From contig CAVXXK010000006.1 of the NCBI GenBank assembly GCA_963765675.1, positions 96,001 through 160,000 of the forward strand: a DNA stretch of 64,000 bases, given 5' to 3'. The notes beneath the pieces were generated by a model, which saw only the letters and a list, made by a program, of their open reading frames with translations, was not told where the DNA came from and searched no databases. Shown here piece by piece: positions 4,222-35,270 of this stretch (its first letter is position 1; each line of letters opens with the position of its first letter). The stretch comes from an uncultured delta proteobacterium. Lineage in GTDB: Bacteria > Desulfobacterota > Binatia > Binatales > Binataceae. A program made the position numbers and the translations under genes.

Positions 4222-7200
4222 TCAGTGGAAATCGTGCGATGGCGGCGTCGCGCCGGAGAGTTTGATCTCGGCGAATTTGTGCGCGCGGATCGCGGTCACG
4301 CCGTCGACTCTCTGCAAGACACCTTCAGCTTGCAGGATTTGTGCGCTGATAAGCAAAAGCCGATTAGCCTGAAACAGGTTGGGAGTGACGATCAGATTGG
4401 AGATTCCGGTTTCGTCCTCCAGCGTGATGAACAGAAATCCCTTCGCAGTGCCGGGACGCTGGCGCACGATCACAACGCCCGCCGTTTTTACGATCGAGCC
4501 GTGCCGCAGATGCTGCAACTTCGCTGCGCTGAGCACGCGCTGCGCGTCCAGGTCCTCACGCAGATAGCTCATCGGATGCGGTCCGGTCGTGAGGCTGGTC
4601 GCGGCATAGTCGGCGAGGGTCTGCTCGATCGGCGCCATTTCCGGGAGCGGCGCTTTGACCGCCTTGGGCCTCGCGCGTGAGAGCAGGCTCGAGGGATCGC
4701 GCTCGACCGCGGCGGCGTTCCATATCGCGTCGCGCCGCGTCATCTCGAAGGCGGCAAACGCGCCCGCGTATGCGAGCGCGTCGAGCTCGCGGCGATTAGG
4801 GCCGACGCGCGCGGTGAAATCGGCAATCGAATCGAACGGACGGCGGCTGCGTTCGTGCTCGATGCGCGATCCGGTCTCCTCGCGCAGCCCCGTCACATAC
4901 CGCAACCCCATCCGCAGGCAGAGTTCCGATCCCTCTTCCTGTAAGGGAGGTGCCACTGGCACGCGGCCAGGTGAGGGTCCTTCCAGTGCGCAGCGCACCG
5001 CCGTGCCCGATCCCTCGCCCTGAAAGGGAGAGGTTAGGTGAGGGTCCTTATTCAGCGCGGAGCGTAGCGGAGCGCGATTAAAATTCTGGTCAGAGTTTTT
5101 TCTTATTCCCTCCCCGATGCGGGGAGGGTGGCAGGCATCGCCCGTCGGGAGAGGTCGCTCTGGATGACTGGTGATTGTGGTCGTATCGGATCGACCTAAC
5201 CCCTGACCCCTTCCCGCACGGGAAGGGGAATTATCTAGCGATGTGATCGGTGGTTCGCCCTCACCCACGCGGCGTATCGTCGCGTTGCCCTCTCCCGGGG
5301 GGAGAGGGAATACATGTGCCGCCGCGTCGCCTTTTCCAGGAGGGAGAGGAATTACATGCGGCGGTATGCGCCGCGTGCGCTCGATTGTGCATTTCCAGTT
5401 CGAGCGGGTTACATCGATCGGCAGGACGGTCATGCCGCCCCGCTGCGCATCCTTTACCAGCACCGACGGATGGTAAAAGCCCATCGGCCAGCAATTGAGT
5501 ATCGCGGCGAAGAATGCTGCCGGATGATAATACTTCAAATAGGCCGACGCGTAGGCGATCAGCGCGAAGCTCGCGGCGTGCGACTCCGGAAAGCCGTAGA
5601 GCGCGAATGACGAAATCGAAAGCGCGATTTCGTCGGCAACCCTGCCCGTGATTCCATTGCGCGCCATCCCGCTGCGCAGCCGCGCCTCGATTTTCTCCAT
5701 CCTCTCGGCCGAGCGCTTGAACCCCATCGCGCGGCGCAGCTCCTCGGCCTCGCCGCCGGTGAAGCCGCCGACCGTCATCGCGATCCGCAGCAGTTGCTCC
5801 TGGAACAGCGGGACGCCGAGCGTCCGCTTCAGGATCGGCTCAAGGGAAGGATGCGCGTAGATTACCGGCGCGCGTTTGTTGCGCCGATCGAGATACGGAT
5901 TCATCATCTTGCCGACGATCGGGCCCGGCCGGATGATCGCGACCTCGACCACCAGATCGTAGAATTCCTTCGGCTTCATCCGCGGCAGCGTCGCCATCTG
6001 CGCGCGGCTCTCGACCTGGAACACGCCGACGGTGTCGGCCCGCCGCAGCATCGCATAGACGCCGGGATCGTCGGGCGGCAGATGCGCGAGGTCGATCTCG
6101 ACGCCCTCGTGCTCGCGAACCATCGGGATAGTCTCTTCGAGCACCGCGAGCATCCCGAGCCCGAGCAGATCGATCTTGATAATTCCCAGATCGGCGCAAT
6201 CGTCCTTGTCCCACTGCACCACCACGCGCCCCGGCATCGCGGCCGGCTCGAGCGGGACGATCTCGTCGAGCGGCGTCGCGCCGATCACCATGCCGCCGCT
6301 ATGCTGTCCAAGATGGCGCGGGATGCTCTTAATCCGCCGCACCAGATCGACCAGCATCTTGATCCGCGGCGATTCCGCATCGATGCCGCCGCGTTTGAAC
6401 AGAGCGACGAGATCATCGTAATGGTCGCGGAACTCGTAGACCTGGTTGAGCTTGGCCAGCCGATCGACTTGTTCCGGAGAAAATCCCAGCGCCTTGCTGA
6501 CCTCGCGCACCGCGCTCTTGGTGCGATAGGTGATCACGTTCGCGGTCATCGCGGCGCCGTGTTCGCCGTAACGGCGATAGACGTACTGGATGACTTTTTC
6601 GCGCTGATCGCCGCTGGGCAGATCGAGATCGATATCCGGCCATTCGCCGCGCTCTTCGGATAGAAAGCGCTCGAACAGCAGCTTCATCTTGACCGCATCG
6701 ATAGCCGTGATTCCCAGCGCGTAGCACACGGCGCTGTTCGCCGCCGAGCCGCGTCCCTGCGCCATGATCGCGTTCTCGCGGCAGAACTGGACGATATCCC
6801 AGACGATAAGGAAATAGCCGGCGAGCTTCAGCCTTTCGATCATCCCGAGCTCGTGCTCGAGCTGGTGGCGCGTGCGCTCATCGAGGCTCGCGCCCCATCG
6901 GTCGCGCGCGCCTTTGTAGGTGAGTATCCGCAAATAGCTGTCGGAGGTCTCGCCCGGCGGAACCGGATAGCTGGGAAAACGATAGCCCATGTCGGACAGC
7001 GTGAAGGCGCATCGCTCCGCGATCGTGCGGGTGGCGGCGACCGCGTCCGGCAGGTCGCGGAACATCGCGGCCATCTCCGCGGGCGGCTTCAGATGGCGCT
7101 GATTGTTGACCCACAGCGCGCGGCCCGCTTCTTCGAGCGTGGTCTTGAGCCGGATACAGGTGAGGACATCGAGCAGCCGGCGATCGGCGCCGCCGTGGCA

Positions 7201-7788
7201 TACGTCGTTGGTCGCGACGATCGGAAGATGCGCGGCGTCGGCGAGCGCGGCTAGCTTGCGGTTCAGCCGCTCTTCATCGGGGTCGAGATGGCGCTGCAGA
7301 TCGACATAAAAATTTTTCCCGCCGAAGATCCCTTCCAGCCGATCGCAAAGCGGACGCGGGTCTTCTCCTCGAATGAGCATTCGCGAGAGTGGGCTCATCG
7401 TGCCGCCGCCCAGGCAGATCATCCCGCGCCCGTGGCGTTCCAGATCATCCAGCGTGATTCGTCCGGCGCCCTTTGCGGCGCGCAGCTTCGAGCCGGTGAT
7501 CATCCGGCAGAGATTTTTGTAGCGCTCGCGATCCGGAATCAATACGTAGAGACGCGAATCGTCATCGAGGGTCAGTTCAGCGCCGACTATCGGTTTGATT
7601 CGGGCGTCCTTGGCCGCCTGATGGAATCGCGGCGCGCCGTAGAGTCCGTCGCGATCGCCCAGCGCGATCGCGCGGTAGCCAAGCTCAGCCGCCTGCGTGG
7701 CGAGATCCTCGGGCGTCGACGCGCCTTCGAGAAAGCTGAAAGCACTGCGCGCGCGCAATTCGATATAGTCAGTTGAATAGTCAGTCAT
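4222..7788 (-). CDS. dnaE2: Error-prone DNA polymerase DnaE2 (ImuC) with an in-frame palindromic-repeat insertion of about 150 aa
   Basis: Degenerate PHP (ELRARSAFSFLEGAS), GRGSAANS, PDIDLD, RHLGQHSGG, YGFPESHAASFA, RQRPGTAKG OB fold, C-terminal SHDFH. ATG 7788 overlaps the imuB stop (ATGACTGA). Confidence 0.95.
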   Translation of the reverse strand: MTDYSTDYIELRARSAFSFLEGASTPEDLATQAAELGYRAIALGDRDGLYGAPRFHQAAKDARIKPIVGAELTLDDDSRLYVLIPDRERYKNLCRMITGSKLRAAKGAGRITLDDLERHGRGMICLGGGTMSPLSRMLIRGEDPRPLCDRLEGIFGGKNFYVDLQRHLDPDEERLNRKLAALADAAHLPIVATNDVCHGGADRRLLDVLTCIRLKTTLEEAGRALWVNNQRHLKPPAEMAAMFRDLPDAVAATRTIAERCAFTLSDMGYRFPSYPVPPGETSDSYLRILTYKGARDRWGASLDERTRHQLEHELGMIERLKLAGYFLIVWDIVQFCRENAIMAQGRGSAANSAVCYALGITAIDAVKMKLLFERFLSEERGEWPDIDLDLPSGDQREKVIQYVYRRYGEHGAAMTANVITYRTKSAVREVSKALGFSPEQVDRLAKLNQVYEFRDHYDDLVALFKRGGIDAESPRIKMLVDLVRRIKSIPRHLGQHSGGMVIGATPLDEIVPLEPAAMPGRVVVQWDKDDCADLGIIKIDLLGLGMLAVLEETIPMVREHEGVEIDLAHLPPDDPGVYAMLRRADTVGVFQVESRAQMATLPRMKPKEFYDLVVEVAIIRPGPIVGKMMNPYLDRRNKRAPVIYAHPSLEPILKRTLGVPLFQEQLLRIAMTVGGFTGGEAEELRRAMGFKRSAERMEKIEARLRSGMARNGITGRVADEIALSISSFALYGFPESHAASFALIAYASAYLKYYHPAAFFAAILNCWPMGFYHPSVLVKDAQRGGMTVLPIDVTRSNWKCTIERTRRIPPHVIPLPPGKGDAAAHVFPLPPGEGNATIRRVGEGEPPITSLDNSPSRAGRGQGLGRSDTTTITSHPERPLPTGDACHPPRIGEGIRKNSDQNFNRAPLRSALNKDPHLTSPFQGEGSGTAVRCALEGPSPGRVPVAPPLQEEGSELCLRMGLRYVTGLREETGSRIEHERSRRPFDSIADFTARVGPNRRELDALAYAGAFAAFEMTRRDAIWNAAAVERDPSSLLSRARPKAVKAPLPEMAPIEQTLADYAATSLTTGPHPMSYLREDLDAQRVLSAAKLQHLRHGSIVKTAGVVIVRQRPGTAKGFLFITLEDETGISNLIVTPNLFQANRLLLISAQILQAEGVLQRVDGVTAIRAHKFAEIKLSGATPPSHDFH
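4924..5379. repeat. Composite palindromic REP-like element, copy 1, in frame inside dnaE2
   Basis: Hairpin modules CCCTCGCCCTGAAAGGGAGAGG, CCCTCCCCGATGCGGGGAGGG, CCCCTTCCCGCACGGGAAGGGG and CCCTCTCCCGGGGGGAGAGGG, lying between the host motifs WKCTIE and LRMGLRYV. Confidence 0.9.
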
Positions 7789-9689
7789 AAACGCCATCGA
7801 GAAACCATCGCTCCGAGTCAAGATCCCGGAACACGCGGTAAACGCCGCCATCGTCAAGTGCCAGCTCATAGTAATCGCGCAGAAACCCATGCGATCCCTC
7901 TCCCGATTCTGATCCCTCTCCCTGTAAGGGAGAGGCCAGGTGAGGGACCTTATTCAGCGCGGAGCAAAGCGGAGCGCGACTAAAATTCTGATCGGTGTTT
8001 TTTCTGATTCCCTCCCCGATGCGGGGAGGGTGGCGGGCATCGCCCGCCAGGAGAGGTCGTTCTGGACGACTGGTTATGGTGGTCGTATCGGATCGACTTA
8101 ACCCCTGACCCCTCAGAGCAGCACCCTCACCCACGCGCTGCGCGCGTATCCCTCTCCCGGCGGGAGAGGGTTGTTCGGTACGCGCTACGCGCGACTCTGG
8201 GGAAGGGGAACTGTGATTGGACACAATCGGCGGTTCGCCCTCACCCACGCGGCGTACCGCCGCGTTGCCCCCTCCCGGGGGGAGAGGGTATTTCAATGGC
8301 TGCGCGTTACTTGAATTCGTCTTCCACCATTCGCCGTCGCGGCGCCATGGGCCGGCAATCGAGACTACGCGCGCGCCCAGGTTGGGGCCGCGCACGAACT
8401 CGGGCCCTCCGCGCGATTGCATCACCTCGATTTCGAGCGCGGGCCTGAGCGCGCGGATCACAAGCTGCGCGACCGGTTTGCCGCATGCGCCGTTCTCGTC
8501 TGGATGCGGTGGCGGCGGATCGAACGGCTCGATGCGCATGGCCTCCGGACGATACGAATTCTCCGCGCTTAGCGCGCCCACGTTGCCGGGGCCGCATAAT
8601 GCCGCGAGCCGCGCGATCGTGGCCGCGAGCTTATCCGGCGCCGGCGCGGGCGGCAGGAACATGTCGGATTGTGCGGGACGCGGCGCGCGCGGCGTGACTT
8701 CCAGCCGAACGGTCTCGACGGCGGCCTCGGGCGGTGCGGCTTCGAGCGCAAGGTTGATGAGCGTCAGGATCGCACGCACGTCGCAGGTGGGCGCGGTGAT
8801 CGCCACGCGGCGGCTCGCTATTCGATGGTCCTCGAGTCCGAGCACGAGCATCGCATCGCCCGCGGCAAATCCGCGCAGATGAAGGCGCGCGACGATCCGT
8901 TCGAGGACTCCGCGGATCACGAAGCCCAGCGGCTCGAGATTGTCGATCGCGTAGTCGAGTTCGGCGGCCTCGGCAAAAATTTCCGCGCGCCGCCGCGCCA
9001 CGATCGGCCGCGAGCTCCCGCCCCGCGCAAGGCGCACCAGCTCGACGCCGCGGCGTCCGAGCCTGCTGCCAATCGCGTCCGGGTCCAGGCGCGCCAAATC
9101 GCCGAGCCGGCGCATCCCCCAGCGCGAAAACGTGGCCTCGAGCTCCGCGCCGGGATCGAGCATCTCGAGCGGCAGCCAATCGACGAACTCGCGCTCGCGT
9201 CCGGCATCGATCACCCGAACGCCGCCGCATCGCGCCGCCATCGCGGCAATCTCGCGGCTTGCGCCGACTCCGACCGCGGCTTCCATCCCGAGCTTGCGCA
9301 CGCGCCGCTGAAGCTCGATCGCGAGTTCGTCTTCGCTGGTGAAAATCCGCCCCAGGCCCGCGAGGTCGAGCCATACGCATCCGGGATGCGCCCGGCTCGA
9401 CGATCGGCGAGATCGATTCCGCGGCGTCGGCGAGCGCCTGATGCGCTGAATTCTCGGCGGCGGGCGCAGGCGCATTTACGATCAGCCTGGAGCAGATGGC
9501 GCGCGCCTGTGCCAGCGTCATCCCGGCGCGGATTCCCAGCGCGCGCGCGTCAGCGGAGACGGCATCAATCTCGGCGTGAGCGGCGGAGTTTGCGGCGATC
9601 GCGAGAGCGGCGCCTTCGAGAGCGGGATTAGCGCGCACGATCGCGGCGATCGGAAAATCGGGAACCAGGATGCATGCGATACGCGCCAT
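7781..9689 (-). CDS. imuB: ImuB, inactive Y-family polymerase, with an apparent +1 frameshift near 9383-9385 and an in-frame repeat insertion of about 145 aa
   Basis: N-terminal MARIACILVPDFPI...GIRAGMTLAQARA lacking catalytic acids (ORF 8631..9689), continuing in ORF 7781..9475 (WGMRRLGDLARL, GPWRRDGEWW...RDYY...WFLDGVYD); located between imuA and dnaE2. Confidence 0.9.
7886..8323. repeat. Composite palindromic REP-like element, copy 2, in frame inside imuB
   Basis: Same modules as 4924-5379; separates EWW from FLRDYY. Confidence 0.9.
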
Positions 9690-9701
9690 GATACATCCCC
9701 G

Positions 9702-10916
9702 TCATCGCACCGCCGCCGATTCTGATCCCTCGCCCGGCAAGGGAGATGCCACTGGCACGCGGTCAGGTGAGGATCCTTTAGATGTGGAGGGATGCGGAGC
9801 GCGACTAAAATTCTTCTGTCCGGAGCTTTTTCTGATTCCCTCCCCGATGCGGGCAGGGTGGCGGGCATCGCCCGTCGGGAGAGGTCGCTCTGGATGATTA
9901 GACGCGACAGCATGATCAAATTTCAGAGCAGCACCCTCACCCACGCGCTGCGCGCGTTTCCCTCTCCCGGTGGGAGAGGGTATTTCGGTACGCGCTTCGC
10001 GCGGCTCTGGAGAAGGGGAACTATGGGCCAAAGCTATCGGCCATTCGCCCTCACCCACACGGCTTGACGCCGCGTTGCCCTCTCCCAAAGGGAGAGGGGG
10101 ATTACGAGGGAAATTCTGTACGCGCTGCGCGCAATACTGAGGGTCAATCGCCGCGACGATTCGCGTGAGCGCGCCCGAGCCGCCGAGCTTGTTGCGCGTA
10201 ATGACGGGTTCGAGCCGCAGCCCGTCGAAGAGCGTGGGTGCGCCGGGACGGATGCGGCTGAACGACGCGCCGGCGCGATTCATCGTGAGGCTCAGTGCCG
10301 CGAAGGTTCCGCAAATCCTGCGCGGCGCGATCGCGATCACGGCCGCTCCGCTGCGCTCGGCCGCACGCGCGATACGCAGCACGGCGCTGTCGGGGATCGC
10401 GCGAAAAATATCGCCGAAATCGATTACAACCAGGCCGAAGCCTCCCGCCTCGAGCACCATCTCGGCAGCCTTGAGGACTCGTCCCTCGCGCGAAGTGGCA
10501 GGGCGCATGCGGCTAGCCTCCCGCGGAATCGAAGCCCACAGCACGCGCGCGAGTTCGACTCCGGCCGCGGCGATACTGGCGGGATCGAAAGTGCCTGCAG
10601 CGTCGATCCAGGCAATAACCTCGCCGCTCCCGGTTGCATTGGCAGCGAACGCCGTCGCGAGCGAGGTCCTGCCGGTGCCAGCGCGTCCGATAATTTCGCT
10701 GACCCGTCCGCGCGCGATTCCGCCATCGAGCAGGTCATCGAGCGCATCGATACCCGAAGCGAGCCGCCACGCCTTGCGAGTAAGCTCCCGCCCTCGAAAA
10801 ACTCCTGCAAAATCAGCTAGTTGAGACCTGTTTACTGGGACAGGCGAGGGTATATGGAGAGGCGAAATTGCAGGGGATTGGAAAGAAATCCATGGAGCTT
10901 TAATCGCCGCTGCCAT
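9702..10916 (-). CDS. imuA: ImuA / RecA-like protein with a repeat-derived C-terminal tail of about 130 aa
   Basis: SGIDALDDLLDGGIARGRVSEIIGRAGTGRTS (Walker A with K to R), WIDAAGTFDP, GFGLVVID; first gene of the imuA-imuB-dnaE2 order. Confidence 0.85.
   Translation of the reverse strand: MAAAIKAPWISFQSPAISPLHIPSPVPVNRSQLADFAGVFRGRELTRKAWRLASGIDALDDLLDGGIARGRVSEIIGRAGTGRTSLATAFAANATGSGEVIAWIDAAGTFDPASIAAAGVELARVLWASIPREASRMRPATSREGRVLKAAEMVLEAGGFGLVVIDFGDIFRAIPDSAVLRIARAAERSGAAVIAIAPRRICGTFAALSLTMNRAGASFSRIRPGAPTLFDGLRLEPVITRNKLGGSGALTRIVAAIDPQYCAQRVQNFPRNPPLPLGEGNAASSRVGEGEWPIALAHSSPSPEPREARTEIPSPTGRGKRAQRVGEGAALKFDHAVASNHPERPLPTGDARHPARIGEGIRKSSGQKNFSRAPHPSTSKGSSPDRVPVASPLPGEGSESAAVR
9718..10105. 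repeat. Composite palindromic REP-like element, copy 3, in frame in the 3' end of imuA
   Basis: Shares TTCCCTCCCCGATGCGGGxAGGGTGGCxGGCATCGCCCG with copies 1 and 2, and CAGAGCAGCACCCTCACCCACGCGCTGCGCGCG with copy 2. Confidence 0.9.
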
Positions 10917-10922
10917 GGAATG

Positions 10923-10952
10923 ATTTTCGCTTTTCTTTCGCTGCTAAGTCAA
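10923..10952 (-). promoter_or_regulatory. Putative imuA promoter with a TTCGC-N6-TTCGC direct repeat (candidate LexA-type operator)
   Basis: Minus strand: TTGACT-tagcaGCGAAagaaaaGCGAAaat-cattcc-ATG. The 11-bp-period repeat at 10926-10941 overlaps the spacer and the -10 position. Confidence 0.45.
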
Positions 10953-11068
10953 ACCGAATATTGCGATGAGCTTTTGCATAGATGAGGCTTGATATTCACG
11001 ATCACTTTTTTTGTCAGTGGATGCCGACGGCTCGTCGGCAACGTGAAACGTCTATAGAGGTAAGGTGC

Positions 11069-22596: not shown

Positions 22597-22661
22597 ATTT
22601 CTCCGCCTGACGCCTCCGGCGCCGGTCTGAAACCCTCTCCCGGCGGGCCGGCGGGAGAGCT

Positions 22662-22913
22662 TTGCATAACCAATCGGAAAAGTGTGCCGATCTGTGAGGG
22701 CGAGATTCCTCGCGAAATCTGCCGCGCCAGTTGATACGTACGCCCCCATCTGCACTGCCTACGCGCGCTCGGAATGACAATTTCTCCTGGCTTTGTGTCA
22801 TTCCGAGCGCGATCAGGCGCCCTGTATGGTTTCGTATGCTTCATGTTGCGCGGCAGAGGTCGCGAGGAATCTCGCCCTTGCGCACCGGTGCACCCGTCCG
22901 ATTGGTTACGCAA
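22662..22913. repeat. 252-bp imperfect palindrome, copy B
   Basis: Colinear with 16873-17124 and the same length; central GCTCGGAATGACAATTTCTCCTGGCTTxGTGTCATTCCGAGC. Confidence 0.9.
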
Positions 22914-22994
22914 CCCTCTCCCTCCGGGAGAGGGCGACGCGGCGCGGCGATTGCTCTTTTCAGCAATCGCCGTGACGCGTGGGTGAGGGCGGCC
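22914..22994. repeat. CCCTCTCCC/GGGAGAGGG...GGGTGAGGG REP unit of the same family as the imu insertions
   Basis: Its reverse complement aligns with 28523-28603 and with the modules at 5257-5308 and 8237-8288. Confidence 0.85.
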
Positions 22995-23067
22995 TAGCTG
23001 GGTCACCCATCTTTTTTTAACCGCGCGTCGCGGACCGCGCCGAGCTAATCTGGATAGGGTGAACACC

Positions 23068-24170: not shown

Positions 24171-24430
24171 AGGGGGCACAAAATCCGAAAAATTCTGCAC
24201 GGGGTTTTTGACGAGTCGTGCCCTAAATCGGGCCTCTGGCACGCCTAGAAATGCGCATGAAACCCCTGCGGCAGAAGGGGTTGCGCGTTTTCGTCTTGCG
24301 CGGATGCCAGCCTAACACTCGTTCGGGTTTTTGCCAGATTTGTTCATGGCTGAACTGTTCAGCCTTATGCCCAATTCCAGTCCGTGCAAAACTGATCCCA
24401 TGGAAGCATCAGGCGCAGTCAGCAATCCAA

Positions 24431-24536
24431 CCACCAAGACACCAAGACACAAAGACCTGATTCATTTCCGCGCGCCGCGCGCGGAAATGAATCTTCTTCG
24501 TGTTTTAGTGTCTTCCTCTTCCTTGGTGTCTTCGTG
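24431..24536. repeat. Palindrome with CACCAAGACAC / GTGTCTTCGTG arms and a perfect 17-bp central inverted repeat
   Basis: GATTCATTTCCGCGCGC-c-GCGCGCGGAAATGAATC at 24459-24493, flanked by short AAGACAC / GTGTCTT repeats. Confidence 0.8.
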
Positions 24537-24792
24537 TTTAGCCTTTTCTGGCCGCGTAGCACCGTCCGAAAATCGATGACCAAAAAAGCGCATAAAACGA
24601 ACCCAGCGAGCGGAATCCGCCAGTATCCTCAAGGAGAATAATTTTTCGGCGGCGTCAAAAGATACCAAACGAACCCACCGAAATTCGACGGCCGTCGCCG
24701 TTTCAAGGCGCCTCCATGCCCATTTTCAGATTCCGTCCGCAAGATTTGCTTCATCGACGAGCGCCGGAGCATTAGCAATTTTTGAGGTTTTG

Positions 24793-28389: not shown

Positions 28390-28413
28390 TTCCTTCGCCT
28401 GCTTTCTGATTCC

Positions 28414-28802
28414 TCGCCCTGAAAGGGAGAGGCCAGGTGAGGGACCTTATTCAGCGCGGCGCACGGCGCCACGCGATTACAAAGAGGAACCTAAGTATCG
28501 CGCAGGATCCGCGATCAAGCACGGCCGCCCTCACCCGCGCGTCACGATGCTTGCGAAAAGAGCGCAAGCATCGCGCCGCGTCGCCCTCTCCCGGAGGGAG
28601 AGGGAATCTCGGGGGACCGGTCATTGCGCCTCTCCCGCCGGGAGAGGTCGCGCGAGGCTTCGCTATGCGAAGCCTCGCGCGGGTGAGGGCGGCCTTGCTC
28701 GATCGGGGATGCTTGCTGAATACGCAATTTCCTTTTTTATCGCGCGACGCTGCGCGCCGCGCTGAATAAGGTCCCTCATCTAACCTCTCCCTTTCAGGGC
28801 GA
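28414..28802. mobile_element. MITE-like nested palindromic element with terminal inverted repeats of about 49 bp; intergenic relative of the imu insertions
   Basis: TCGCCCTGAAAGGGAGAGGCCAGGTGAGGGACCTTATTCAGCGCGGCGC matches the reverse complement of 28754-28802 with 3 mismatches; inner inverted pair GGCCGCCCTCACCCGCGCG / CGCGCGGGTGAGGGCGGCC. Mobility is inferred. Confidence 0.7.
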
Positions 28803-28817
28803 AAGACCGGAGGCGCG

Positions 28818-33761: not shown

Positions 33762-35069
33762 TCACGGTGCGGCCTTCACCATCGCCTGAGTGGTAAAGAA
33801 ATCGCGTGTGACCGCGCCCATGTTGATGTACCAGCATTCGCGTTCCGGCGTATGCTGACCCGGCAGATAACACATCGTGGCTTGTCCGGATTGCACGTCG
33901 GTCGCAGCCGCGCCAACCACGAACGCGCGCTTGAACGGATAAATCGCGACGCGAGCGTCAGGCACCGGCCGATCGCGATACGTCAGCCAGTAGATATGAT
34001 TCTGCCACAGCTCTCCCTTGGCGTCGTATTCATCGACGTACGGCTCGAACCACATTTCACTGTCGATATACAGAATCGATTTCGCGTGTAGCGCCTGGCC
34101 ATTATTGGATGAGCGCGGTGCCGTCTGCACTACATACAATTGGCGCATCTCCCAGTCTTCCGGGCATGCGCTGCCACCGCCGTCGGTTTGACAGGTGATC
34201 TCGGGCGAATGCACCGCGTTGACCGACGCGAGCATCGACTTCTGTCCGAGGAATTTGTAGTTGTACTCCTCTATCTTCGCGTTGAAGCCCGAATAGTGAT
34301 CCGGATCGAAGTTGGTCGGATTGCCGCCGCTGTTGACGGCGTCGCTCATCAGGCCCTCGTTGAGACGCCGCACACGCCGCACGCCCGGATTCCAATCCCA
34401 GATGTCGTCGGCTTTCTTCGGGTTCTCATAACGATAGCGGATAAAGCCGCCGCCGCGATCATTCTCGGGCGCGAGGATTGGGTATAGGGCGAATAGCCAA
34501 TAACGATTGGTCGTCTTGAAGTCAGGATCGATCGGCAGAGGCTCTACCTCCGTGCGTCCGACCTCGTCATAACCGGCGTAGTGTCCGATCTGATAATAGT
34601 CAATTACGCTTACTGCACGGTTGCGTCCGGTGTTGACTACGTCGCAATCGTAATAGCGCAGATCGTAGTCGTCGGTCGTGATTGGACGGAACGCGTTGTT
34701 CCACATGATCTTGGTCGCGACACTCGGATCGTTCGGATCAAGAAACGGGAACGGTTGTCCGGCTACATAATTGACGACGGTTCGTCCGTCGGGCGAAAGC
34801 CGCACCTGGTCGGCGTATTTCTCGGTCGCATCGCGGTAGGGCGGCGGCCAATCGATCCGCTCCGTCGGAACGATTTTCATCGTCATTCCGTTGACGACCT
34901 TGTAGTAAACCCCGGGCGAGACCAGGTTCTTCACCTGATACGAGTTCGTATAGGTGATCATCTCACCGGGTTTGACTTGGGCATTGGCGGGGGGCGCCGC
35001 GATGACTAATCCCACTACTAACAAGAGAGCGGCCGCGCGCCACGTCCATGCGTGGACTTCCTTGAGCAT
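33762..35069 (-). CDS. DUF1329 domain exported protein
   Basis: AAGGAGG RBS, signal peptide, ATEKY, YVAGQPFP, RRVRR, YDAKGELW; paralog of 54830 and 56357. Confidence 0.8.
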   Translation of the reverse strand: MLKEVHAWTWRAAALLLVVGLVIAAPPANAQVKPGEMITYTNSYQVKNLVSPGVYYKVVNGMTMKIVPTERIDWPPPYRDATEKYADQVRLSPDGRTVVNYVAGQPFPFLDPNDPSVATKIMWNNAFRPITTDDYDLRYYDCDVVNTGRNRAVSVIDYYQIGHYAGYDEVGRTEVEPLPIDPDFKTTNRYWLFALYPILAPENDRGGGFIRYRYENPKKADDIWDWNPGVRRVRRLNEGLMSDAVNSGGNPTNFDPDHYSGFNAKIEEYNYKFLGQKSMLASVNAVHSPEITCQTDGGGSACPEDWEMRQLYVVQTAPRSSNNGQALHAKSILYIDSEMWFEPYVDEYDAKGELWQNHIYWLTYRDRPVPDARVAIYPFKRAFVVGAAATDVQSGQATMCYLPGQHTPERECWYINMGAVTRDFFTTQAMVKAAP

Positions 35070-35270
35070 GACATACCTCCTTCTACTGACTGCGTTAATC
35101 AGCCGAGACAGAAGATGCCACGGGCGAGCCGCCACGGGTCGCCTCATCAACGGGGACAGGGTACTAGGACTGCGACTGGTCGCAGCTCCTGCGGGGGCAC
35201 CATAATATTCGGACGAAGCGCGCCGCTATTTAATTCATCGCGGAGAAAAATATTTTCGCGTATACTCAGA

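What the first reader, a model, noticed from the sequence alone, without database searches (positions are those of the whole stretch)
4222..10916. All three mutasome genes (imuA, imuB, dnaE2) carry the same palindromic DNA element, translated in frame as a shared peptide of about 140 aa
Seen: homologous composite hairpin elements of about 400-450 bp lie at 4924-5379 (dnaE2), 7886-8323 (imuB) and about 9718-10105 (imuA). All three have the same orientation and reading frame and no stop codon. They encode related peptides: PLPxGxGNAxxxRVGEGExPI...(H/R)PERPLxxGDAxHPxRIGEGIRK...NFxRAP...PLxxEGSE. I saw this element in no other CDS in the window; its other relatives are intergenic. Known: imuA-imuB-dnaE2 encodes the SOS mutasome, whose subunits interact, and coding palindromic insertions have a precedent in the Rickettsia RPEs. 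Inference: one copy in each subunit of a single complex, in a single frame, looks non-random. The element may be a domesticated module, such as a disordered interaction or degradation tag, a structured-mRNA control on error-prone polymerase expression, or a DNA hairpin that can be excised or converted. The neutral alternative is repeat spread within a rarely expressed operon.
Basis: partly seen in the sequence, partly recalled or inferred. Interest (0 to 1): 0.9.

Follow-up and report, generated by a model that had tools for sequence, protein, structure and literature searches.

The report
Repeat-derived loops in mutasome genes
All three genes of an error-prone DNA repair complex in an uncultured soil bacterium carry the same stack of small palindromic genome repeats, read in frame as floppy protein loops; the pattern is real, gene-specific and old, but the loops look like tolerated passengers rather than a new working part.

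Summary
Mosaics of GC-rich palindromic repeats, 435-459 bp long, lie in frame and without stops in dnaE2 (4921-5379), imuB (7883-8323) and as the C-terminal tail of imuA (9705-10139). The modules belong to a genome-wide, mostly intergenic repeat pool of 410 clusters. Only one of six frames is open, and that frame is also open in intergenic copies, so the shared frame and orientation need no special cause.

The insertion sites are short turns or variable tails in insert-free relatives. AlphaFold2 gives pLDDT 30-42 for the inserts and about 90 or more for the flanks. The inserts are present in every genus genome examined, with varying module content, and none breaks the frame. Copies within one genome resemble each other more than orthologues do, which indicates gene conversion. 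Amino-acid change is close to neutral: synonymous to non-synonymous codon differences are 143:357 in the insert and 1750:629 in the core.

The gene specificity is striking. In a search of 5.8 billion proteins, 15 of 15 longer proteins carrying the peptide are ImuA, ImuB or DnaE2 of Binataceae. In this genome the only other internal repeat insert found is in mutS.

Best reading: tolerated passengers in permissive loops, spread and homogenised within the operon. A domesticated function is not excluded. In this assembly imuB also carries a +1 frameshift.

The parts
4222..7890 (-). dnaE2 (error-prone polymerase), 1222-aa ORF. The likely true start is the ATG near 7800 (MAFMTDY...), overlapping the end of imuB.
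   Evidence: Pfam PHP, DNA_pol3_alpha, finger, HHH_6 and OB domains. NF004225 scores 1273 bits against a cut-off of 939.
4921..5379 (-). In-frame palindromic repeat mosaic in dnaE2 (aa 838-990). It replaces a 2-4-residue beta-hairpin turn just before the helix-hairpin-helix domain.
   Evidence: Repeats. 0 stops in the gene's frame, 3-6 in the others. Empty site CTIENGALRLGLRYV in relatives. pLDDT 30-35 against 91-97 in the flanks. GC at codon positions 1/2/3 is 0.70/0.60/0.57, unlike coding sequence.
7781..9385 (-). imuB, the part downstream of the frameshift (little-finger region and ImuB-C domain), with the stop at 7781-7783.
   Evidence: Collinear with intact ImuB of relatives.
9387..9689 (-). 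imuB N-terminal 101 codons (IMS domain), in a different frame from the rest of the gene.
   Evidence: Pfam PF00817, E 1.7e-11. In relatives the two parts are contiguous in one frame.
9386..9387 (-). +1 frameshift in imuB: GCGCATCCCGG here, GCGCG-CCCGG in relatives.
   Evidence: Alignment with G004, G005, G007 and G009. One base is 'left out' here in contigs of three metagenome runs, X2, X6 and X7 (table 4). No run holding this exact strain covers the site, so whether it is a real mutation or an assembly error is not resolved.
7883..8323 (-). In-frame palindromic repeat mosaic in imuB (aa 385-531). It sits inside the ImuB-C domain between the GEWW and RDYY motifs.
   Evidence: Empty site GEWW-x3-8-F(A/V)RDYY. 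RNA MFE -216 kcal/mol, z -6.9. pLDDT 31-42 against about 90 in the flanks.
9702..10916 (-). imuA (RecA-like mutasome subunit), 404-aa ORF.
   Evidence: Pfam RecA E 2.9e-9. The best NCBIfam match is ImuA, but below its cut-off. The gene sits first in the imuA-imuB-dnaE2 order.
9705..10139 (-). Repeat mosaic read through as the C-terminal tail of ImuA (aa 260-404). It ends 12 nt before the imuB start.
   Evidence: Insert-free relatives have a 15-35-aa variable tail after RNKLG...IDP.
10923..10952 (-). Promoter-like site just upstream of imuA (TTGACT-18-GAAAAT).
   Evidence: Consensus scan only: 1 site found against 1.4 expected. Weak.
11008..11052 (.). Intergenic palindromic repeat copy (GCCGACG..CGTCGGCATCCACTGACA) upstream of imuA, of a different abundant family.
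   Evidence: Repeat locus C6:107008-107052. Sequence read. The same motif appears in a block with about 100 genome hits.

Best explanation
The inserts are mosaics of the genome's own REP/BIME-like palindromic repeats. In an ancestor of this Binataceae genus they landed in three structurally permissive places in the mutasome operon: a beta-hairpin turn of DnaE2, a loop of the ImuB-C domain, and the variable C-terminal tail of ImuA.

The modules carry one intrinsically stop-free frame, so only copies in that frame and orientation leave the genes intact. That explains the shared frame. The composite was copied between the three genes, which lie 2-5 kb apart, and is still being homogenised and reshuffled by gene conversion and module gain or loss. 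Selection acts only on keeping the frame open.

The translated product is a disordered Pro/Gly/Arg/Glu-rich loop that the proteins tolerate. For imuA, in-frame read-through probably also keeps ribosomes running up to the imuB start.

Shown: repeat origin, intrinsic open frame, empty sites, persistence across the genus, concerted evolution, near-neutral peptide change, predicted disorder. Inferred: the single ancestral origin, the copying mechanism, tolerance through low expression, and the coupling argument.
For: Repeat pool. There are 554 repeat loci (71 kb) forming 410 clusters, and 86 of the 410 are at least 300 bp, so the imu clusters (386-392 bp) are ordinary in size. The imu inserts are detected even when imu-derived queries are left out.

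Intrinsic frame. One of six frames is open in each insert. Among intergenic copies, 48 of 51 alignments whose net gap keeps the frame are open in that frame, against 22 and 17 for the other two.

Permissive sites.
- Insert-free relatives have 2-8 residues at the DnaE2 and ImuB sites.
- Other genera carry unrelated inserts of 12-185 aa at the same sites.
- In other phyla the DnaE2 loop measured 5-192 aa in the 49 of 80 loci that could be parsed.
- AlphaFold2 gives no secondary structure in the inserts, with pLDDT 30-42 between flanks of about 90 or more.

Neutral peptide.
- Core dnaE2 differences by codon position 1:2:3 are 464:312:1901, with 1750 synonymous and 629 non-synonymous codon differences.
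- In the insert the figures are 250:214:348, and 143:357.
- GC3 in the insert is 0.57, against 0.74 genome-wide.

Concerted evolution.
- Over 198 nt the three G009 copies are 89-93% alike.
- The G009 dnaE2 and imuB copies are 83-87% identical to their G000 and G005 orthologues.
- A 20-nt variant segment is shared by species, not by gene.
- The dnaE2 core is 93% identical between these species.

Decay. Hairpin excess is near zero in some copies, for example the G007 imuB insert. There were 0 compensatory pairs among 30 consensus pairs.

Other genes also read into repeat clusters at their 3' ends: 21 candidate frames among 286 clusters.
Against: - Specificity is stronger than simple tolerance predicts. 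All 15 of 15 longer database proteins with the peptide are ImuA, ImuB or DnaE2.
- In this genome the only other internal repeat insert found among 3268 long coding-like ORFs is in mutS, another mutation-rate gene.
- No genus genome examined has lost an insert: DnaE2 8 of 8, ImuB 6 of 6 whole genes plus one partial, ImuA 5 of 5. This holds despite length turnover of 68-189 aa.
- Stem columns vary less than unpaired ones, 13 of 60 against 55 of 138, so some constraint or homogenisation at the nucleic-acid level exists.
- Concerted evolution would also fit a need for the three copies to stay alike.
- Low expression as the reason for tolerance is assumed, not measured.
Confidence: 0.6

Rival explanations
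1. Domesticated protein module. The shared disordered peptide acts in the mutasome, for example as a homotypic or multivalent interaction segment that helps ImuA, ImuB and DnaE2 co-assemble, or as a common degradation or regulation tag. Gene conversion keeps the three copies alike because likeness matters.
For: - The peptide is exclusive to the three subunits: 15 of 15, and all copies in long open frames in five genomes.
- It is retained in every genus genome examined.
- Copies within a genome are more alike than orthologues are.
- The ImuB insert lies inside ImuB-C. According to passages I read in PMC6511836, the ImuB C-terminal region binds ImuA and DnaE2, and ImuB-C is proposed there as the DnaE2-binding part.
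Against: - Change is near neutral, 143 synonymous to 357 non-synonymous.
- Module content and length differ between close species: 110-146 aa in DnaE2 and 112-189 aa in ImuB among genomes whose dnaE2 core is about 93% identical.
- Some species carry extra copies at a second DnaE2 site.
- No structure is predicted.
- Codon composition is not coding-like.
- Sister genera work with an empty site.
Confidence: 0.13
2. Nucleic-acid-level control. The stable hairpin stacks in the mRNA (or DNA) of all three cistrons throttle or time expression of the error-prone polymerase. Possible routes are slowed ribosomes, RNase sites, mRNA stabilisation, or binding of REP-recognising proteins.
For: - Strong excess structure: the imuB insert folds at -216 kcal/mol, z -6.9.
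- Rough z of -4 to -15 for most genus inserts, against +1 to -3.4 for core segments.
- Stems are more conserved than spacers, and 97% of pair cells are canonical.
- No terminator-like site lies inside the inserts on the coding strand, so they are compatible with read-through.
Against: - There were 0 compensatory changes in 30 pairs.
- Structure has eroded to z about 0 in some species' inserts, G007 imuB and the second G007 dnaE2 site.
- The same hairpins are ordinary intergenic repeats, so their structure is inherited rather than evidence of selection here.
- No expression data exist; no RNA run holding the locus was listed.
Confidence: 0.1
3. Second-order selection or a switch on mutation-rate genes. 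Repeat insertions in mutasome genes and mutS were fixed because they alter mutation supply and hitch-hiked with beneficial mutations. The in-frame direct repeats may also allow recombinational deletion or fusion of mutasome genes as an on/off switch.
For: - Every internal repeat insert found in this genome is in dnaE2, imuB or mutS.
- The mutS insert is also genus-wide and variable, and is absent in other genera.
- The three operon copies are direct repeats in one frame.
- imuB is frameshifted in this assembly.
Against: - The functional category was defined after seeing the data, and there are only two independent loci (the operon and mutS).
- No deletion or fusion form was seen.
- The contig joints between inserts come from 90-95%-alike relatives and are explained by differing mosaics.
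- The mutS insert is a different single module.
- All sites are variable loops, which by itself explains survival.
Confidence: 0.07
4. Assembly artefact: the repeats were mis-assembled into the genes.
For: The genome is a 16-contig metagenome-type assembly with other oddities. These include a poly-G/poly-A block, a contig that appears to duplicate part of another, and a frameshift in imuB.
Against: - Independent assemblies of at least seven other species have inserts at the same junctions, all in frame.
- Public protein records carry them too.
- Short-read contigs of related populations run from core sequence into insert modules at 7888, 8318 and 9716. One contig of run X1 bridges the 8323 junction.
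Confidence: 0.01

Closest known systems
Rickettsia palindromic elements (RPE; Ogata et al. 2000, as cited in the review PMC3184786, of which I read passages)
   Same: Palindromic repeats are inserted in frame inside protein-coding genes, translated as extra peptide segments, and compatible with an intact host ORF.
   Different: - The elements here are stacks of several short REP-like hairpin modules (435-459 bp), not single elements of about 105-146 bp.
- In this genome they are confined to one operon plus mutS, rather than spread over many unrelated genes.
- The three copies evolve in concert.
- The phylum is different (Binatia-type MAG). No sequence relation to RPE was tested.
REP / BIME repeats with RAYT transposases (Enterobacteria, Pseudomonas)
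   Same: Short GC-rich imperfect palindromes in hundreds of copies, mostly intergenic and clustered in mosaics. The genome encodes four Y1-transposase (RAYT-like) genes, three of which are flanked by repeat clusters.
   Different: The repeat families that flank those RAYT-like genes do not match the imu modules, so no mobilising enzyme is identified for this family. Classical REPs are extragenic, whereas these copies are coding.
Betaproteobacterial repeat element (BRE; Hot et al. 2011) and other repeat-ORF fusions reviewed by Delihas 2011 (PMC3184786, passages read)
   Same: The review reports internal in-frame repeat inserts (about 9 genes for BRE) and 3'-terminal ORF extensions by repeats. 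The imuA tail and several other genes here are of the second kind.
   Different: I found no reported case in which every subunit of one complex carries the same composite, nor any case involving imuA, imuB or dnaE2.
Inteins in DNA polymerase genes
   Same: Large in-frame insertions in polymerase genes that leave the flanking domains intact.
   Different: Pfam finds no intein or Hint domain in the three proteins. The peptide is low-complexity and predicted disordered. The DNA is palindromic repeat found across the genome.

Membership tests
REP/BIME-type repetitive palindromes | Short GC-rich imperfect palindromes that form stable hairpins | tested here: met
   Stems of 8-9 bp with 3-nt loops, such as CCCTCTCCC-N3-GGGAGAGGG. 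Fold z -6.9.
REP/BIME-type repetitive palindromes | High copy number, predominantly intergenic, clustered in mosaics | tested here: met
   158 loci similar to the three inserts. 554 repeat loci forming 410 clusters, 86 of them at least 300 bp. Only dnaE2, imuB and mutS are internal to coding ORFs.
REP/BIME-type repetitive palindromes | A RAYT (Y1 transposase) gene flanked by the same repeat family | tested here: not met
   Four PF01797 matches. Three are flanked by repeat clusters, but those flanks give no blastn hit to the imu inserts.
REP/BIME-type repetitive palindromes | GTAG or CGTC tetranucleotide tag at one end (known to me only from the abstract of PMC3733652, listed) | not tested
   Not examined.
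RPE-like coding palindromic elements | In-frame, stop-free insertion that leaves the host ORF intact | tested here: met
   0 stops in the gene's frame. ORFs are intact in relatives.
RPE-like coding palindromic elements | Insertions scattered over many unrelated genes | tested here: not met
   Only the mutasome genes and mutS in this genome. 15 of 15 database proteins with the peptide are mutasome subunits.
MITE | Terminal inverted repeats and target-site duplications | not tested
   Junctions were compared at the protein level only. No search for target-site duplications was made.
ImuA-ImuB-DnaE2 mutasome operon | DnaE2-type error-prone C-family polymerase | tested here: met
   NF004225 scores 1273 bits against a cut-off of 939. 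Pfam domain set.
ImuA-ImuB-DnaE2 mutasome operon | ImuB: Y-family fold plus a conserved ImuB-C domain, intact | tested here: inconclusive
   IMS and IMS_C domains. The conserved C-terminal GEWW...RDYY...WF.DG.YD motifs align with relatives. However, the gene is frameshifted at 9386-9387 in this assembly.
ImuA-ImuB-DnaE2 mutasome operon | ImuA: RecA-like protein encoded first in the operon | tested here: inconclusive
   RecA Pfam domain, E 2.9e-9. The best NCBIfam match is NF033429 ImuA, but at 39 bits against a 150-bit cut-off. Gene order is imuA-imuB-dnaE2.
ImuA-ImuB-DnaE2 mutasome operon | LexA/SOS control | not tested
   No LexA box is known to me for this lineage. The upstream region was read and only a weak promoter-like site was found.
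Intein | Hint/intein splicing domain | tested here: not met
   No such Pfam family in P0001-P0003 at E up to 0.01.

The most novel reading that the evidence does not exclude
The composite is a domesticated module specific to the mutasome. On this reading a repeat-derived disordered segment is present in all three subunits and is kept alike within each genome by gene conversion because likeness matters for co-assembly, co-localisation or co-degradation of the error-prone polymerase complex. Repeat inserts reach fixation preferentially in mutation-rate genes (the mutasome and mutS) through second-order selection.
Probability: 0.12. Interest if true: 0.8.

Novelty: new variant of a known kind. 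Interest (0 to 1): 0.5.

Why it matters
In-frame palindromic repeats in genes are known. What is unusual here is a multi-module composite that occupies every subunit of one complex, occurs in no other long protein in a 5.8-billion-protein database search, persists across a genus and evolves in concert.

If it is neutral, it is a clean natural example of how selfish repeats create long disordered loops in essential-fold proteins. It also shows how gene conversion links such loops across neighbouring genes.

If it is functional, it would be a new way of tying together or controlling the subunits of an error-prone polymerase.

It also flags three structurally permissive sites (a DnaE2 beta-hairpin turn, a loop of ImuB-C and the ImuA tail) that could be useful for tagging these proteins.

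Tried and rejected
- A 13-mer repeat census was too noisy in this GC-rich genome (813 kb 'repeat'). I replaced it with 16-mers plus blastn.
- A first coding-flank filter with GC3 of at least 0.75 returned nothing, because genome GC3 is only about 0.74. I loosened it.
- Spanning-ORF candidates C1:874234 (35 bp, not repeat-like) and C1:1942926 (non-coding-looking frame) were rejected on inspection.
- Ten ORFs with internal peptide-level hits were Gly/Pro/Ser-rich low-complexity regions or stop-to-stop N-terminal extensions, not repeat inserts.
- Repeats flanking the RAYT-like genes were compared with the imu modules. There was no match.
- Intein: no domain found.
- Terminator scan: none inside the inserts on the coding strand.
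- Sequencing runs: no RNA holder was listed, and no run held more than 0.17 of the sampled words. The four runs laid are 90-99%-alike relatives kept as contigs. They neither confirm nor refute the frameshift for this strain. No precise-excision joint was listed among those shown; 24 more joints were not shown.
- The dinucleotide-shuffle fold script timed out. The z values use only 8 mononucleotide shuffles each and are rough.
- Literature: searches found no paper on repeats in Binatia or in imuA, imuB or dnaE2. Supplements were not opened.
- G002, G006 and G008 (fragmented assemblies) were not analysed gene by gene.
- Counts that include G010 rest on an unpublished genome: DnaE2 8 of 8 and ImuB 6 of 6.

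Full report
**What is there.** The window is G000:C6:96001-160000. On the minus strand lie imuA (9702-10916), imuB (7781-9475, plus an N-terminal piece in another frame, 9387-9689) and dnaE2 (4222-7890).
- DnaE2 has the full domain set and passes the NCBIfam 'error-prone DNA polymerase' cut-off, 1273 against 939 bits.
- ImuB has Y-family domains.
- ImuA is RecA-like, and its best NCBIfam match is the ImuA model, though below the cut-off.
- The closest named DnaE2 relatives are MAGs labelled Candidatus Binataceae or Binatia.

- 5009-5211 and 7911-8113 are 90% identical over 203 nt.
- 8113-8288 and 9923-10098 are 85% identical over 176 nt.
- An 84-nt block is shared by all three genes at 89-92%.
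- The imuB and imuA inserts align over 406 nt at 76%.
- Aligned in coding orientation, the three show the same order of modules, with module-sized gaps.
- The in-frame limits are 4921-5379, 7883-8323 and 9705-10139. Each has 0 stops in the gene's frame and 2-9 stops in each of the other five frames.

**Two corrections.** The imuA copy is a C-terminal tail that runs to the stop, 12 nt before the imuB start. It is not an internal insert. Second, imuB in this assembly has one extra base near 9386-9387. Four genus relatives and contigs of three metagenome runs (table 4) lack that base. In the relatives the two parts of imuB are one frame. I cannot tell whether this is a mutation or an assembly error, because no run holding this strain covers the site.

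**Origin of the inserts.**
- The modules are the genome's own palindromic repeats. blastn with the three inserts finds 158 loci, nearly all 200 bp or shorter.
- An unbiased census (16-mers occurring at least 5 times, extended by blastn) gives 554 loci (71 kb) in 410 clusters. Of these, 86 are at least 300 bp, so stacks of this size are common between genes.
- The imu inserts are still picked up when all imu-derived queries are removed.
- The genome has four Y1-transposase (RAYT-like) genes. Three are flanked by repeat clusters, but these belong to other families that do not match the imu modules.
- I therefore call the elements REP/BIME-like by anatomy. Membership of a RAYT-mobilised family is not shown.

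**Why one frame.** The frame used in the genes is open in the intergenic copies too. Of 91 alignments of at least 45 nt outside the operon, 71 are open in that frame, against 41 and 26 in the other two. Among the 51 alignments whose net gap keeps the frame, the counts are 48, 22 and 17. With five of six frames closed in the composites, any copy that leaves a gene intact must have this frame and orientation. The shared frame is therefore a survivorship effect, not a sign of design.

**Where they sit.** Alignments with insert-free relatives define empty sites.
- In DnaE2, ...W.CTIE-(2-4 residues)-ALRLGLRYV.
- In ImuB, GEWW-(3-8 residues)-F(A/V)RDYY, inside the conserved ImuB-C domain.
- In ImuA, a 15-35-aa variable tail.
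- AlphaFold2 with alignments of relatives gives no secondary structure in the inserts. For ImuB-C, the insert has pLDDT 31-42 and the flanking strands about 90. For the DnaE2 C-terminal part, the insert has pLDDT 30-35 and the flanks 91-97.
- Other genera of the family carry unrelated or differently repeat-like inserts of 12-185 aa at the same sites.
- In other phyla the DnaE2 loop measured 5-192 aa in the 49 of 80 loci that my motif parser could read.
- These are generally permissive loops.

**History.**
- DnaE2 carries a related mosaic of 68-184 aa at the same site in 8 of 8 genus genomes with the region assembled.
- ImuB carries one in 6 of 6 whole genes plus one partial gene (78-189 aa).
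- ImuA carries one in 5 of 5. One of these genomes, G010, is unpublished.
- G004 and G007 have a further mosaic at a second DnaE2 site, after reference residue 107.
- Module content differs even between species whose dnaE2 core is about 93% identical.
- No insert breaks a frame in any of these genes.
- Short-read contigs of related populations run from core sequence into insert modules at the same junctions, so the inserts are not an artefact of this assembly.

**Concerted evolution.**
- Over a 198-nt block present in most copies, the three G009 copies are 89-93% identical to each other.
- The G009 dnaE2 and imuB copies are 83-87% identical to their G000 and G005 orthologues.
- A 20-nt variant segment is shared by all three genes in G009, and by dnaE2 and imuB in G000 and G005.
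- The dnaE2 core is 93% identical between these species.
- The copies therefore exchange sequence within a genome, and they diverge faster between species than the surrounding gene does.

**Selection.**
- In the dnaE2 core of five species, differences fall 464:312:1901 on codon positions 1:2:3, with 1750 synonymous and 629 non-synonymous codon differences.
- In the insert the figures are 250:214:348, and 143:357. That is about what unconstrained change gives.
- The insert's GC by codon position is 0.70/0.60/0.57, against about 0.67/0.47/0.74 for long ORFs.
- The RNA of the imuB insert folds at -216 kcal/mol, z -6.9, and most genus inserts keep excess structure. Some have lost it: rough z is about 0 for G007 imuB and for the second G007 dnaE2 site.
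- In the 198-nt alignment, 97% of pair cells are canonical and stem columns vary less than others (13 of 60 against 55 of 138). None of the 30 pairs shows a compensatory change.
- Overall there is no protein-level constraint beyond an open frame. There is some conservation of stems, which homogenisation against other copies could explain as well as function could.

**Specificity.** This is the part that simple tolerance does not fully explain.
- In G000, of 410 clusters, only those in dnaE2, imuB and mutS lie inside an ORF with coding-like flanks on both sides.
- A peptide-level screen of 3268 long coding-like ORFs added none.
- The mutS insert (G000:C3:452134-452224, about 31 aa, PRRPLPEGEG...) sits in a loop that is expanded by 20-75 aa across the genus and is short in other genera.
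- Read-through of repeat clusters at gene 3' ends, as in imuA, has other candidates: 21 frames among 286 clusters.
- In five genus genomes, all 21 matches to the imuB insert peptide that lie in open frames of at least 300 aa are in the imu operon. The other 24 listed matches are in frames of 224 aa or less.
- Among 5.8 billion public proteins, the 15 longer proteins that match at E up to 1e-5 are five ImuA, five ImuB and five DnaE2, and the records that carry a source name are labelled Binataceae. That search sees only candidates sharing 5-residue words with the query.

**Reading.** The best-supported account has four steps.
1. Repeat modules with an intrinsically open frame were inserted into permissive loops of a rarely needed operon.
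2. The composite was copied between the three neighbouring genes.
3. Gene conversion and module turnover have continued since then.
4. Selection has acted only to keep the frame open.

For imuA, in-frame read-through would also bring ribosomes to the imuB start instead of leaving a 430-nt structured spacer. That last point is inference.

I put this reading at about 0.6. A domesticated shared disordered module (0.13), mRNA- or DNA-level control (0.10), and a link to selection on mutation rate or a recombinational switch (0.07) are not excluded. The exclusivity to mutasome subunits, the retention in every genus genome and the second case in mutS keep them alive.

**Against what is known.** In-frame repeat inserts and 3' ORF extensions are described for RPE, BRE, ERIC-like and other elements (passages of PMC3184786 read). 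ImuB-C is proposed as the DnaE2-binding part of ImuB, and the ImuB C-terminal region binds ImuA and DnaE2 (passages of PMC6511836 read). Four searches found nothing on such inserts in imuA, imuB or dnaE2, or on repeats in Binatia. This is a new variant of a known kind: multi-module, operon-specific, concertedly evolving, and in an uncultured lineage.

Noticed in passing
G000:C3:451717-454422 (outside the window); insert at C3:452134-452224: mutS (NF003810, 937 bits) carries an in-frame repeat-derived segment of about 31 aa in a loop of its N-terminal region. The loop is expanded by 20-75 aa, with varying modules, across the genus and is short in other genera.
   Followed up: partly
window 9386-9387: imuB has one extra base relative to four genus relatives and three metagenome populations, which splits the gene into two frames. 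Whether it is a real pseudogenisation or an assembly error is undecided.
   Followed up: partly
G000:C1:98142-99349: A block of more than 1 kb of poly-G followed by poly-A sits inside a long ORF. It looks like an assembly artefact.
   Followed up: no
G000:C10 versus G000:C1:909000-917000: Contig C10 (19 kb) appears to duplicate a stretch of C1, including a RAYT-like gene and its flanking repeats. The matches and ORFs are identical. This suggests redundancy in the assembly.
   Followed up: no
G000:C1:652526-652771, C1:912829-913074, C7:68913-69143: Three distinct Y1-transposase (RAYT-like) genes. Two are flanked by their own palindromic repeat families, with about 13-16 and about 45 genome hits respectively. 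These families are unrelated to the imu modules.
   Followed up: partly
L017 (G004) and L015 (G007), DnaE2 after reference residue 107: A second in-frame repeat mosaic of 98 and 67 aa in the PHP-domain region of DnaE2 in two genus species. One search suggests several tandem module copies at this site in G006 as well.
   Followed up: partly
L028 (G022, another genus), dnaE2 C-terminal part: The region downstream of the hotspot matches only at 36-44% and contains several stops (4 TGA, 1 TAG). The 3' part of the gene looks degraded in that genome.
   Followed up: no
G000, at least 10 loci, e.g. C1:396850-398127, C1:894190-895779 and window 34497-35225 (C6:129765-131225): A large paralogous gene family sharing the motif WNNVFRPI..DDYDLRFYD turned up as 'repeats' in the census. 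It was not characterised.
   Followed up: no
window about 22652-23046, 24311-24685 and 28395-28812: Other large palindromic repeat clusters (375-418 bp) in the window. None lies in a coding-like ORF.
   Followed up: no
L037 (Candidatus Acidiferrales MAG), L038 and L073: DnaE2 of some Acidobacteriota has 40-192 extra residues in the same beta-hairpin loop. The short ones share a peptide (VSSF.FQVS...LVIPSE) that may itself be repeat-derived.
   Followed up: no
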